Below, in pieces: positions 9,001 through 39,000 of a stretch of DNA of 64,000 nt. The DNA lies in assembly GCF_037042905.1 (NCBI RefSeq), contig NW_026974140.1, forward strand, positions 10,540,001-10,604,000. The letters run 5' to 3'. Source of the stretch: Lytechinus pictus (lineage: Eukaryota). Position 1 is the first letter of the stretch; the number at the start of each line of letters is the position of its first letter. Position numbers: made by a program.

Positions 9001-12000
9001 CTCAAGCAGGATGTTCAGTAATACTTGATTAACCTTATGGCCAAGTTTCATGAACTAGGTCCATATACTTTCTAAGTTATGCTGTCATTTCAAAAACTTA
9101 ACCTCAGGTTAAGATTTGGTGTTGACGCCGCCGCCGCCGTCGGAAAAGCGGCGCCTATAGTCTCACTCTGCTATGCAGGTGAGACAAAAATCGGGCTGGA
9201 TTAATTGGAGTTCGATTTGATGGTATCATCAGAGATAGTAGTTTTGATGACATCCATATTCAAAGGTAGTGTGATGATAACATCAGTAATGCCAACCTTT
9301 GCAGCATGTACAGTCAGCCGGAGTCTATGATGATATCATTACAGAAGTCAGCCTTTAAACAAGTACTGACTACAGAAGTGCCTCTTGTGATATCATCAAA
9401 GAGGCCAACCCTACTCTGGCGTAGTCTCTCTGATATCATCAAAAGAGCCAACCCTACCCTTGAACTGCCTGGCATATCGTCTTTGATGATATCAAAAGAG
9501 GCCAACCCTATCGCTGTACAGCCTGGCGTAGTGTCTTTGATGATATAATCAGAGAGGCCAACCCTACCCTTGAACAGCTTGGCACAGTGTCTTTGATGAT
9601 ATCATCAGAGTTTAACTGGGACTTAATACAGTGCTTCAGAATATCTGATGATACAATCGTAGATATTTGTAATACACAGATGAACGAACCTGATACCATC
9701 ACATAGTTCAACTACATGTTGATATTGACGAAGTGCCTTTAATGGCGTCATCAGATCTTACCATTATGAAGTTGAAGAAACAAATTAACAAGAAGCATTT
9801 TACAACAGGATAGGAAGAGTCAGCCTTTACAGCATGTTGAGACTGAAGTAGTATCTTTGATGATATCTTCATGATCATCATGTCTGATCTCACCATTTCT
9901 TACATTATTGGTTAATTCAACTGCAATGTCCAGGAAGAGGCGATCCACATTGTCAGACTCTTTGGCTGATGTCTCCAGGAAACGCATCGAGTGGGAATCT
10001 GCAAAGCTTTGTCCATCTTCTTCGTTCACCTCTCGATCCTTGGCAAGGTCAATCTTATTACCTTCACATCAAAAAGAAAAAGAAAATAAATAATGACATG
10101 TTTTACCAGGGTCCTAGCAAGCCCTGCTTAACATGATAATGTTATTATCACCCAGCTTTAGTACGGCTACCTTGATCGGGCACTCAAGCATTCAAGGATT
10201 TTTCTTCCTACCGGGTACCCATTCACCTCACCTGGCGTGAGCACAGCACAATATGGGTACATTTCTTGCTGAAGGAAAAGACACCATGGCTTAGGATCAG
10301 ACCCACGTCCCTCAGATTGACAGTTGAGAGTCATTACCACTAGCCGCCATTTCATTACGCACATTAATACATTTAAAACACAGAGAAAGTCAGAGTCAGA
10401 GTTTTCAACACATTGAGTGGTATTCTGATAACTAAACCCAAGTTTGAACTCAAGACTAAACACACACTTCAGTTCCACATTTCTATGGAATACTACTTTT
10501 TTTTTTTTATTCAGACAAAGTGATTTTACCCCCAAAAGTTTAAATTGATTATATACTCATATGATGTTTGTACCTGGTGACATTGATGGAAAATTGCATT
10601 CCAGGTGGGTGTTTCATAAAGCTGTTTGTAAGATAGGAATGACTTTACGCTGACTGGTGATCCTTTCTTGTACTATGTGATATCCCTATGTAATCGAGTT
10701 ATGACCTAAGAACATGTTACAGCAGGCGCGTAGCCAGGGGGGGGGCGGTCGCCCCCCCCCCCCCAAACGTCCCCAAAAAGAAAAAAAAAAGGGAAAAAAG
10801 AGAGGAGAAAAGGAAAAGGGAAGGGAGGAAAGGGAAGAAAGGTAGCTTTTTTTTTTTTATTCTTTATTTTTTTTCTCAAAAGAGAAACTCCTTCACTCAT
10901 GCTCTAAATTTATATATGAATTTTGCTTCCGCGCTGCGAGCGGTTAAATGACAATATTGAAGTTCTCCATTGTTTTCCCCACCCTTTCTCTAACCCTGTT
11001 TTTCCACCTCAGCTATATGTGTTAATTGCCAGTTATATTTCAAATGTACACATTAGGGCATGGAATTTGAGTAAGATTAGGCCGAACTATATGAAGTTAT
11101 CTTTTTTTTTTTATTGATCGTGCAACTTCTGGTCAGGTCGGCTCCGGGCGGGTAAAATCTTTATATCAATTTCTGCCGTCACCTCCATAAAGTCAACTTT
11201 TCCCGCTTTTCAGCTCATTACTAAACAACCATAATTTGGGGGCAAACAGGTTCCTAATTTAAAAAGAGGAAGGGATAAAATTTGTGTCGTATTAAACAAA
11301 AAAGTAAATTTTTATCAAATTCTATTAAACTTCAGATCATTTCCCTGCACATTCATCTCCTGTCCTGTTTTGCGCTCTCAGTTTGAAATTTTGAATGACA
11401 CTTGAGTTTCTTTATAGTTCAAAATGAAGCGCTTCAGGATAAGTCAAAGAAATTAGGCATCCTTTTTTATATAATTTCAATAAATCACAGAAGTTTCAAC
11501 TTTTTGCGCACTATTTTCCTTGTAAGTTCAATAATCTTATAAAATCAATTGAATTAGAGCCGATGGGGTATTAGAGATATCTGCATTTGATGAAACGTCC
11601 GCCCTTTGAAATTTCAGAGTTTCATTGCTCTGCGCGGGGAGGAATATCTTCCTCCCGGCATATACACTTCTTCTCCTCTGTTTTGCGAGTTAAAGATATG
11701 CACTGTCGCTAAATTGTTTGTAATGAAATCTGATCTTTCCAAGGGAAATATTCAATGTATCTTTGAGAATACCCTTTTCTCGGGACCCTTTTCATGGCAA
11801 AAAATTGATAACACACTTTAGCTTCCGCGCTTCGCGCAGGTTTATTATTATTTCAATTTCCTCCATTGTATTCCTTTTTTGTGCGTTCACAATCACTTTT
11901 GAAAACAACGTTCATGAAAACAAGGTTAAAAATCACAATATAGTCAACTGAATTGGAGCTGATATAAGTACGAGAGACAAGAGAGACGGCTCCTTTTCAT

Positions 12001-36000: not shown

Positions 36001-39000
36001 GTATCATCACTTGTATAAGATGACATCATAGTTTAATAGATCATTGTGGTAAGCCTAGGTTGTACTATGCTGTATCATCACTTGTACAAGATGACATCAT
36101 AGTTTAATAGATCATTGTGGTAAGCCTAGGTTGTACTATGCTGTATTATCATTTGTATAAGATCACATCATAGTTTAATAGATCATTGTGGTAAGCCTAG
36201 GTTGTACTATGCTGTATCATCACTTTTACAAGATGACATCATAGTTTAATAGATCATTGTGGTAAGCCTAGGTTGTACTATGCTGTATTATCATTTGTAT
36301 AAGATCACATCATAGTTTAATAGATCATTGTGGTAAGCCTAGGTTGTACTATGCTGTATCATCACTTGTACAAGATGACATCATAGTTTAATAGATCATT
36401 GTGGTAAGCCTAGGTTGTACTACGCTGTATTATCACTTGTATAAGATGACATCATAGTTTAATAGATCATTGTGGTAAGCCTTGGTTGTACTATGCTGTA
36501 TCATCACTTGTATAAGATCACATCATAGTTTAATAGATCATTGTGGTAAGCCTAGGTTGTACTATGCTGTATTATCACTTGTATAAGATGACATCATAGT
36601 TTAATAGATCATTGTGGTAAGCCTTGGTTGTACTATGCTGTATTATCATTTGTATAAGATCACATCATAGTTTAATAGATCATTGTGGTAAGCCTAGGTT
36701 GTACTATGCTGTATTATCACTTGTATAAGATGACATCATAGTTTAATAGATCATTGTGGTAAGCCTAGGTTGTACTACGCTGTATTATCACTTGTATAAG
36801 ATGACATCATAGTTTAATAGATCATTGTGGTAAGCCTTGGTTGTACTATGCTGTATCATCACTTGTATAAGATCACATCATAGTTTAATAGATCATTGTG
36901 GTAAGCCTAGGTTGTACTATGCTGTATTATCACTTGTATAAGATGACATCATAGTTTAATAGATCATTGTGGTAAGCCTAGGTTGTACTATGCTGTATTA
37001 TCACTTGTATAAGATGACATCATAGTTTAATAGATCATTGTGGTAAGCCTTGGTTGTACTATGCTGTATCATCACTTGTATAAGATCACATCATAGTTTA
37101 ATAGATCATTGTGGTAAGCCTAGGTTGTACTATGCTGTATTATCATTTGTACAAGATGACATCATAGTTTAATAGATCATTGTGGTAAGCCTTGGTTGTA
37201 CTATGCTGTATCATCACTTGTACAAGATGACATCATCGTTTAATAGATCATTGTGGTAAGCCTAGGTTGTACTATGCTGTATCATCAATTGTACAAGATG
37301 ACATCATAGTTTAATAGATCAATGTGGTAAGCCTAGGTTGTACTACGCTGTATTATCATTTGTACAAGATGACATCATAGTTTAATAGATCATTGTGGTA
37401 AGCCTAGGTTGTACTATGCTGTATCATCACTTGTACAAGATGACATCATAGTTTAATAGATCATTGTGGTAAGCCTAGGTTGTACTATGCTGTATTATCA
37501 TTTGTACAAGATGACATCATAGTTTAATAGATCATTGTGGTAAGCCTAGGTTGTACTATGCTGTATTATCACTTGTACAAGATGACATCATAGTTTAATA
37601 GATCATTGTGGTAAGCCTAGGTTGTAGAATGCTGTATCATCACTATATAACTAAGATTAGATATTCTCATAGTTCAATTGGTCTTTGTGGTAAGCATAGG
37701 TTGTAATACGCTGTCTTGTCCCAGAAATCAATGCCTTTCCAACCGCACCATCCCTGATGAAAAAATGAAAATATAAATAAATGCTTTTTATTTCTTGACC
37801 ATTTCATAATCATAGATTATCAAACACTTCCTAAATTTAATAAAATGCATTCTCAAAATCTATACTTGGAGCTAATATCATATCCTTGAACTTTGTGTGA
37901 CAAATAGTAGGAAAAATCATTAAAACTATTGATGAAGATTTGAGGGAAATCAAATCTTCAGTATATCAATAGACAAATTATTTCACATTCGCTCTTGAAA
38001 GAAAGAAAAATAAGTCATCACGAACCATGAAAACTTTGAAATTTCTGCACTTTATATCACAAAACATATATGGCAGCTGCTCGTACATGACGTCACATAT
38101 CAAAAATTTAAAATTCTAATAACTTTCTTCATATTTGATGGATTCTGGTCAAACCTTCATCAATATTTTCTATCAATTTTTATTCTATTTTTTACAACTA
38201 AATTTTTGTCTGGGTGAACTTCCCCTCTAATCCTTTGAACCCGAAAAGACGGAATACAAGCTTCACCATAAACGTGCATATACCCGAAAAGCAAGAATAC
38301 TGGCTTCAAGTCATGTGATTTGAAAAGCAAGGGTTTTAGATATCAGGTGACATTTAAAAATGACATAATTTTTGATGATATTCAGTCGATAATTTCAGTT
38401 TATGATTTTGTCGACAATTGGGTTTCATTTATGAGATTTTAGCATAAAAAATGACCAAATTATACTACCCTACCAAGGAGGCTTGTTCGATAATACATAG
38501 CGAGTTGTATACGGACTATGCGAAAGCTATTGTTGAATTTTACTTCCATCAAAGCAGTGATTTTGAGACAAAATTTGTGATTATCATTAGTACGGGAAGC
38601 TAAACAACATCAGCCGGGCCAGGCCGGGTATCAGCGGAGTAAGGTGCCGCTGACATGGCTGGGCTCAAATCATGACAATACTAGATCATTTATTTCAAAT
38701 GTCATGTATTCCTTCATTTTGCCAATAATCTTTATATCTGTAAATAATTCAGGGTGAGGGTCACGACCGTCCAAATTAATTCAGGGTTCAAAGGGTTAAA
38801 CCAGAGTTAAGAATAATGGTTTATACCTTGTCTTGTATAGTCTTGATATCCTCACCACCTGTATAATGAGGATCTAAAATGAGAAACTTGAGATCTCCGG
38901 AATTCTCGCTGAAATCCACTCCTAAAATAGTGTGGGCAAGAACTCCACCTCCTGAAGGGAAATGAGATTGAAGTAAAAATTAATAACATGATATTAATAG

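What the first reader, a model, noticed from the sequence alone, without database searches (positions are those of the whole stretch)
9210..37753. Two neighbouring genes both show stop-codon-anchored tandem amplification
Seen in the sequence: two unrelated adjacent genes each have an array whose unit spans about 15 final codons plus the stop, extending only downstream, one homogeneous (UFSP2) and one decayed (RAB30). Inference: this may be a recurrent lineage-wide way of generating 3' UTR sequence. Duplications spanning the stop leave the protein intact, so they are tolerated and can then expand. I am not aware of this being described as a general pattern, but two cases may be coincidence.
Basis: inference. 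Interest (0 to 1): 0.65.

Follow-up and report, generated by a model that had tools for sequence, protein, structure and literature searches.

The report
Repeat arrays seeded by gene ends
In a sea urchin, two neighbouring genes are each followed by a run of non-coding repeats copied from their own last 15-17 codons plus the stop codon, which is real and curious but most likely the harmless by-product of ordinary tandem duplication.

Summary
The window is sea urchin DNA: the Rab last exon is 100% identical to Lytechinus pictus Rab-30-like. It is not human. Rab30-like and UFSP2-like both lie on the minus strand.

- **UFSP2 array:** the last 15 codons, the stop and 30 nt form copy 1 of a 45-copy, 71-bp array (37714 to 34511). 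An older orphan copy lies at 33955-33886.
- **Rab30 array:** the last 16-17 codons, the stop and 5 nt found a decayed array of about 56-bp units (9873 to 9199). 8 of 13 downstream segments are still recognisable.
- **Direction of copying:** both C-termini are conserved in other animals, so the coding ends are the source.
- **Copies are non-coding:** the periods are not multiples of three, and the copies carry stops and replacement changes.
- **Controls:** 34 internal exon-junction anchors show nothing comparable.

The best reading is two independent minisatellites. Each was founded by a tandem duplication spanning the stop, which selection tolerates because copy 1 keeps the protein intact.

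A lineage-wide process cannot be tested, because no eukaryotic genome DNA was available. A rough base rate gives 0.1-0.4 such neighbouring pairs per genome by chance. Whether the arrays are transcribed as 3' UTR is also unknown.

The parts
9820..16387 (-). Rab30-like coding region, 4 coding exons by tblastn: 16387-16301, about 15557-15450, 13327-13133 and 10062-9820 including the stop
   Evidence: tblastn of P0001 (Rab-30-like, Lytechinus pictus) against the window; the first and last exons are 100% identical. Pfam Ras hits on 13130-13327 and 9823-10068.
9814..9873 (-). Rab30 founder unit (U0): codons for HEDIIKDTTSVSTCCKG, the stop TGA (9822-9820) and a few nt of flank
   Evidence: The tail ED.I[KR]D.SSVS.CC is shared with the sea star Acanthaster planci Rab30.
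9199..9813 (-). Decayed Rab30-derived array of 13 segments (U1-U13). U2, U5-U10 and U12 are significantly similar to U0. U10 keeps the codons for TCCKG.
   Evidence: TRF detects the core at 9431-9610 (56 bp x 3.2 copies).
8249..9191 (+). Mobile element with internal 160-190-bp tandem repeats. It bounds the distal end of the Rab30 array.
   Evidence: A second copy lies at 56691-57233 (74-93% identity over several HSPs).
37667..63185 (-). UFSP2-like coding region, 14 exon-sized tblastn segments. The last exon is about 37756-37667 including the stop.
   Evidence: tblastn of P0005 (L. variegatus UFSP2-like), 86-98% identity per segment. Pfam Peptidase_C78 and UfSP2_N hits.
37637..37714 (-). UFSP2 founder copy (copy 1): codons [15 protein letters not shown], the stop TGA (37669-37667) and 30 nt
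   Evidence: The motif [10 protein letters not shown] or a close variant (YNLC/YNMC, then a P near the end) is present in 15 of 15 named metazoan UFSP2 proteins printed.
34511..37636 (-). UFSP2-derived array, copies 2-45, period 71 bp. The centre is homogenised and the edge copies 2, 44 and 45 are older.
   Evidence: No open frame of 50 aa or more lies between 34465 and 38013 (one search list).
33956..34510 (.). 556 bp separating the array from its orphan copy. It contains dispersed repeats: 34436-34331 resembles 5844-5739, and 34284-34199 resembles 63648-63732.
33886..33955 (-). Orphan, older copy of the UFSP2 unit. It is 77-82% identical to array units over the 66-71-nt full-length HSPs and keeps TGC (Cys) where the array consensus has GGC.

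Best explanation
These are two independent minisatellites. Each was founded when a short segment spanning the end of the coding sequence and its stop codon was duplicated head to tail. The segment was about 56 bp at Rab30 and about 71-78 bp at UFSP2.

Shown: the upstream copy still ends with the original codons and stop, so the protein is unchanged. All further copies lie after the stop, are out of phase and are free to mutate.

Shown as anatomy, inferred as history: the Rab30 array is old and has decayed. A mobile element now abuts its far end. The UFSP2 array also began early. Its diverged edge copies and an orphan copy cut off by 556 bp of DNA that holds dispersed repeats point to this. One internal variant was later re-amplified to about 40 copies.

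Inferred: the first step was replication slippage or a microhomology-mediated tandem duplication. Later growth came from unequal exchange or slippage. Selection acts only as a filter. Duplications wholly inside a coding exon shift the frame and are lost, whereas those that include the stop survive.

I see no evidence that the arrays do anything. That two neighbours both carry one is either coincidence or reflects a locally or lineage-wide raised rate of tandem duplication.
For: Array structure:
- Each array is contiguous and in register with the coding end.
- The similarity is strong and confined to the downstream side: 42 and 5 HSPs of at least 24 bits downstream, none upstream.

Direction of copying:
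- The Rab30 tail is shared with the Acanthaster protein.
- The UFSP2 tail is shared across 15 of 15 named metazoan proteins printed.

Copies are unconstrained:
- At UFSP2, 6 of the 7 differences between the coding copy and the consensus are nonsense or replacement changes.
- There is no open frame of 50 aa or more in the array.

Age of the UFSP2 array:
- Edge copies 2, 44 and 45 share TTC where the interior has TAG. The orphan and the coding copy share TGC where the interior has GGC.
- Dispersed repeats lie between the array and its orphan.
- Sub-blocks differ in homogeneity. Copies 26-37 differ at 0.74 positions on average, against 5.24 for copies 38-44.

Independence and origin:
- The units of the two arrays are unrelated. 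29 and 79 of 500 shuffles reach the observed score.
- Neither unit has copies elsewhere in the 64 kb.

General mechanism:
- Microhomology-mediated tandem duplications are frequent in yeasts, and frame-disrupting ones are depleted from important genes (PMC8639346, passages read).
Against: - 2 of 2 stop-bearing exon ends are positive against 0 of 34 other exon-junction anchors. 2 of the 4 substantial arrays in the window sit on a stop. By rough target size I expect about 0.01. This hints at more than random placement plus a filter.
- The founding junctions are too decayed to show microhomology, so the first step is inferred.
- The motif GATGATATCATCAAA persists in the Rab30 segments even where the rest of the unit is gone (U11-U13). 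Pure neutral decay does not predict that.
- Copy number rests on one assembly.
Confidence: 0.72

Rival explanations
1. One reading: in this lineage, tandem duplications spanning the stop arise or persist unusually often and are a regular source of new sequence at gene 3' ends.
For: - Both genes whose 3' ends lie in the window show it, in independent sequences of different ages.
- 0 of 34 internal exon-junction anchors show it.
- My rough neutral estimate gives only about 0.1-0.4 such neighbouring pairs per genome. It uses the array density of this window, a 60-78-nt target per gene, and 885 Mb with 21,638 genes taken from another urchin (PMC11586663, passages read).
Against: - The sample is two genes.
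- The window was picked because it looked odd, and I do not know how many windows were scanned.
- Duplicated splice sites are probably less tolerated than duplicated stops, so the junction control is not neutral.
- No genome-wide or cross-species data could be reached.
Confidence: 0.17
2. The arrays are kept because they work in the mRNA or at its 3' end, for example as multiplied poly(A) signals or protein-binding sites.
For: - Each UFSP2 unit carries ATTAAA: 43 evenly spaced copies starting 68 nt after the stop. No AATAAA occurs for 5.1 kb.
- A palindromic GATGATATCATC-like core recurs in 7 places in the Rab30 array.
Against: - Single-strand folds of six units are no more stable than shuffles, with z from -0.87 to +0.56.
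- There are no Rfam matches.
- The Rab30 array is decaying.
- The homogeneity of the UFSP2 array is explained by recent amplification.
- No transcript data are available.
Confidence: 0.07
3. The arrays are satellite repeats carried in by a mobile element, or an assembly artefact, and only resemble the coding ends.
For: - A repeat-bearing mobile element really does sit next to the Rab30 array and has a second copy in the window.
- Long arrays can be mis-sized in assemblies.
Against: - The units match conserved coding ends in register.
- Neither unit occurs elsewhere in the window.
- The units carry structured variation rather than identical copies.
Confidence: 0.03

Closest known systems
Minisatellites (VNTRs) in gene 3' regions, such as the 40-bp repeat in the 3' UTR of SLC6A3/DAT1
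   Same: Head-to-tail units of tens of bp lie just after a coding region. Growth is by slippage or unequal exchange, and the centre of the array is homogenised.
   Different: Here the first unit is the end of the coding sequence itself, stop included. I saw the DAT1 paper (PMC13064044) only as a search listing; the 40-bp unit size is recalled.
Microhomology-mediated tandem duplications in yeasts (PMC8639346)
   Same: Short tandem duplications arise everywhere, and selection removes frame-breaking ones inside important genes. This is the same filter logic as proposed here. I read passages only.
   Different: Those are single, reversible duplications seen in cultures, not fixed multi-copy arrays. 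The passages I read do not mention duplications across a stop. Microhomology could not be shown here.
Satellite-like repeats carried by non-autonomous mobile elements
   Same: These are short arrays near genes. One such element lies beside the Rab30 array (8249-9191, with a second copy at 56691-57233).
   Different: The two arrays in question have no dispersed copies in the window and derive from the adjacent gene. The comparison with published elements of this kind in other invertebrates is recalled and was not tested.
Tandem duplications spanning gene ends in animal mitochondrial genomes
   Same: The duplicated unit includes the end of a gene plus flanking non-coding DNA, and the extra copies decay.
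   Different: That is an organellar setting with a different replication mechanism. This comparison is recalled, not checked in any call.

Membership tests
Minisatellite / tandem repeat array | Head-to-tail units of about 10-100 bp in several copies | tested here: met
   71 bp x 44.4 copies and 56 bp x 3.2 copies; 45 copies at UFSP2; at Rab30, 8 of 13 segments are recognisable.
Minisatellite / tandem repeat array | Copy number varies among individuals | not testable with these tools
   Only one assembled haplotype is in hand.
Microhomology-mediated tandem duplication | A short identical sequence at the start of the unit and just after its end in the ancestral sequence | tested here: inconclusive
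   By eye, the edge copies are too diverged to place the junctions. Both arrays also end at or near inserted repeats.
Transposon-borne satellite | The same unit occurs at other, dispersed sites together with element ends | tested here: not met
   there are no significant copies of either unit elsewhere in the 64 kb. Only this window was searched, not the genome.
3' UTR element | Lies between the stop codon and the poly(A) site of the mature mRNA | not testable with these tools
   No transcript data. ATTAAA occurs 68 nt (UFSP2) and 77 nt (Rab30) after the stops, so the transcripts may end before most of each array.
Rab30 (Ras-superfamily small GTPase) | Ras-family GTPase domain and C-terminal double-cysteine tail | tested here: met
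   Pfam Ras, E=3.8e-22 and 4.3e-12; the last exon is 100% identical to the protein named Rab-30-like in L. pictus, which ends in CCKG.
UFSP2 (UFM1-specific protease 2) | UfSP2 N-terminal domain plus Peptidase C78 domain | tested here: met
   three ORFs hit Peptidase_C78 and three hit UfSP2_N, all above the curated cut-offs; 14 exon segments are 86-98% identical to L. variegatus UFSP2-like.

The most novel reading that the evidence does not exclude
In Lytechinus, and perhaps in echinoids generally, short tandem duplications that begin in the last 15-20 codons and span the stop are enriched well above neutral expectation. They repeatedly seed kilobase-scale arrays, making coding ends a regular raw material for new 3' flank or UTR sequence. 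This would include new poly(A)-like hexamers such as the ATTAAA created inside every UFSP2 unit.
Probability: 0.13. Interest if true: 0.6.

Novelty: new variant of a known kind. Interest (0 to 1): 0.35.

Why it matters
If it is only two cases, this is a neat illustration of how selection filters tandem duplications. Only those that carry the stop codon along survive at a gene's end. The decayed copies then act as fossils of the ancestral coding end.

If it proved general, it would name a simple, previously undescribed route by which coding sequence becomes non-coding 3' sequence. It would also flag a hazard: recombination between the coding copy and its stop-bearing pseudo-copies would truncate the protein.

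Tried and rejected
- **Hairpin-driven slippage.** DNA folds of six units (two from UFSP2, four from Rab30) gave z-scores from -0.87 to +0.56 against 200 shuffles each. This gives no support.
- **A shared motif or common origin of the two arrays.** Local alignment of two-unit stretches was reached by 29 of 500 shuffles on the same strand and 79 of 500 on the opposite strand. Rejected.
- **Transposon origin.** Neither unit recurs elsewhere in the window. The neighbouring 8249-9191 element does recur.
- **Structured or known RNA.** There were 0 Rfam matches at gathering score and 0 tRNAs in the whole window.
- **Other genes as extra test cases.**
  - Pfam was run on all 345 stop-to-stop frames of 50 aa or more, in three calls of 115.
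  - Hits above the curated cut-offs were found only on Rab30 and UFSP2 exons.
  - There were 5 further sub-threshold hits.
  - The 287 frames of 40-49 aa were not scanned, so a gene made of short exons could have been missed.
- **Literature.**
  - Searches found no description of stop-anchored arrays. One search failed on syntax.
  - The L. pictus genome paper (PMC8085125) is not held.
  - No supplements were opened.
- **Random-anchor runs.** Two runs timed out and were replaced.
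Full report
**What the window is.** The DNA is AT-rich (GC 0.30-0.42 per 2 kb) and has no N. The Rab last exon is 100% identical to a protein named Rab-30-like of Lytechinus pictus (P0001, 198 aa). The UFSP2 exons are 86-98% identical to UFSP2-like of L. variegatus (P0005, 619 aa). I take it for sea urchin DNA, not human.

All protein searches used single open frames or single exons.

**Gene map.** Both genes lie on the minus strand.
- Rab30-like has four coding segments from 16387 down to the stop at 9822-9820.
- UFSP2-like has 14 segments from 63185 down to the stop at 37669-37667.
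- Pfam was run on all 345 stop-to-stop frames of 50 aa or more. It hit above its cut-offs only on exons of these two genes: Ras on 2 frames, Peptidase_C78 on 3 and UfSP2_N on 3. Five further hits were below the cut-offs.
- Frames of 40-49 aa (287 of 632) were not scanned.

These are therefore the only two gene 3' ends I could recognise in the window.

**The UFSP2 array.** TRF finds 34552-37714, period 71, 44.4 copies, 95% matches. Read on the minus strand in register:
- Copy 1 (37714-37637) is the coding end [15 protein letters not shown], the stop and 30 nt. It is 78 nt long and matches the consensus at 60 of 71 positions.
- Copies 2-44 match at 64-71 of 71, and copy 45 at 53 of 71.
- The next 71 nt do not match beyond background (40 of 71 with many gaps).
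- Over the 48 coding-derived nucleotides, the consensus matches the coding copy at 41 of 48. Of the 7 differences, 1 is synonymous and 6 are nonsense or replacement changes.
- No frame of 50 aa or more is open anywhere in the array.

The 42 copies that are exactly 71 nt long average 95.7% pairwise identity, but unevenly:
- Copies 26-37 differ at 0.74 positions on average.
- Copies 38-44 differ at 5.24 positions.
- Copies 8-22 are more alike at lags 2, 3 and 5 than at lag 1.

This pattern points to several rounds of amplification.

The edge copies look older. Copies 2, 44 and 45 share TTC where the interior has TAG and the coding copy has TAT. The L. variegatus protein has Phe at that residue. 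The edge copies may therefore preserve an older coding state; this is an inference.

A further copy lies 556 bp beyond the array, at 33955-33886. It is 77-82% identical to array units over the full-length HSPs. It keeps TGC (Cys), as the coding copy does, where the array consensus has GGC. The DNA between it and the array contains two dispersed repeats with relatives elsewhere in the window. The simplest history is an early small array, later insertions, and then recent growth of one internal variant.

**The Rab30 array.** TRF reports only 9431-9610 (56 bp x 3.2 copies, 80% matches). A 65-nt query from the coding end finds 5 HSPs with E<0.02. All are on the same strand within 9293-9753. The best hit anywhere else in the window is E=0.047.

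I cut 9873-9199 into a founder unit and 13 downstream segments at a recurring GATGATATCA-like anchor. Against the founder:
- 8 of 13 (U2, U5-U10, U12) score better than at least 499 of 500 shuffles.
- 2 (U11, U13) are marginal, at 16 of 500.
- 3 (U1, U3, U4) do not match.

The founder unit covers 16-17 codons, the stop and 5 nt. U10 still reads ACATGCTGCAAAGG, the codons for TCCKG. Because the double cysteine is the prenylation site of Rab proteins (established knowledge), its decayed copies point from gene to repeat and not the reverse.

**Direction of copying.**
- The Rab30 tail (ED.I[KR]D.SSVS.CC) is shared with the sea star Acanthaster planci.
- The UFSP2 tail ([10 protein letters not shown] or close variants) is present in all 15 named metazoan proteins whose ends I printed.

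Both coding ends are ancestral, and the arrays derive from them.

**More than chance?** I placed 65-nt anchors at the 3' ends of all 18 exons, searching 3 kb downstream. I did the same at their 5' ends, searching 3 kb upstream (805 bases for the first UFSP2 exon).
- Only the two stop-bearing ends are positive, with 5 and 42 HSPs of at least 24 bits (best 34.0 and 56.8).
- The other 34 anchors give 0-1 HSP, with a best of at most 24.0.
- Of 1000 random anchors (positions 3100-60900, both strands), 134 have downstream self-similarity. 50 have it downstream but not upstream.

The similarity itself is certain. The question is whether its position on two stops is a coincidence.

A rough estimate (inference):
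- Four substantial arrays lie in 64 kb, and the target for spanning a stop is 60-78 nt per gene.
- This gives an expected 0.01 stop-spanning arrays per window and about 3e-5 for two.
- With roughly 14,000 windows in a genome of about 885 Mb (size and 21,638 genes taken from another urchin, PMC11586663, passages read), that is 0.1-0.4 such windows per genome.

If the whole genome was scanned, coincidence stays possible. If few windows were scanned, it is unlikely. I do not know which applies.

**How it most likely works.**
- Shown: the anatomy above.
- Inferred: a slippage or microhomology-mediated tandem duplication founded each array. Such duplications are frequent in yeasts, and frame-breaking ones are depleted in important genes (PMC8639346, passages read).
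- A duplication wholly inside an exon, with a period of 71 or 56, would shift the frame. One that carries the stop leaves the protein untouched.
- Later growth by unequal exchange explains the homogenised centre and the old edges.
- I could not place microhomology at the junctions, because the edges are too diverged.

**Rivals.**
- A hairpin trigger is not supported. Six units fold no better than shuffles.
- The two units are unrelated.
- Neither unit is dispersed in the window. A repeat-bearing mobile element does sit at 8249-9191, right against the Rab30 array, with a second copy at 56691-57233.
- A function cannot be excluded. Every UFSP2 unit has ATTAAA, first at 68 nt after the stop, and there is no AATAAA for 5.1 kb. 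Rab30 has ATTAAA 77 nt after its stop.
- The same fact means the mRNAs may end before most of each array, so calling the arrays 3' UTR is unproven.

**Known or new.** 3' UTR minisatellites and tandem-duplication filters are known. I found no paper describing arrays whose first unit is the coding end with its stop (searches; full-text library only, no supplements opened).

**What stayed unchecked.** The open genome collection holds only bacteria and archaea. As a result, the genome-wide test, the orthologous loci in other urchins and any transcript evidence all stayed unchecked.

**Verdict.** The tolerance logic is sound. The lineage-wide claim is open.

Noticed in passing
window 8249-9191 and 56691-57233: A dispersed element with internal 160-190-bp tandem repeats. 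It ends in a GC-rich palindromic stretch and a run of A near 9130-9190. Its two copies in the window are 74-93% identical over several HSPs. One abuts the Rab30 array and the other lies in a UFSP2 intron.
   Followed up: partly
window 60700-61497 (-): A 266-aa open frame in the first UFSP2 intron has a cysteine/histidine-rich end. From recall it looks like the tail of a LINE-type retrotransposon protein. It has no Pfam hit.
   Followed up: partly
window 1706-2252: A 36/74-bp tandem array (14.8 copies, 87% matches) lies about 7.5 kb beyond the Rab30 stop. It has no copies elsewhere in the window and no link to a gene end.
   Followed up: partly
window 9199-9287 (-), and throughout 9199-9873: The palindromic core GATGATATCATC(AAA) survives in the short distal Rab30 segments U11-U13 even where the rest of the unit is gone. 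A single A-to-T change in the coding GAAGATATCATC creates the 12-nt palindrome. Unexplained.
   Followed up: partly
window 33948-37599 (-): ATTAAA occurs once per UFSP2 unit: 43 evenly spaced copies plus one in the orphan. It was created from the duplicated codons for Ile-Glu-Leu. The nearest AATAAA is 5.1 kb after the stop.
   Followed up: partly
window 34331-34436 vs 5739-5844; 34199-34284 vs 63648-63732: Short dispersed repeats (about 82% identical) are inserted between the UFSP2 array and its orphan copy.
   Followed up: partly
window 37565-37636, 34511-34653 (-): The edge copies of the UFSP2 array read TTC (Phe) where the L. pictus gene now has TAT (Tyr). The L. variegatus protein has Phe there. 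This may be a fossil of the ancestral codon.
   Followed up: no
window 26001-30000: This is the GC-richest part of the window (0.41-0.42), between the two genes and about 10 kb upstream of the Rab30 start codon. It could hold a promoter or an untranslated first exon.
   Followed up: no
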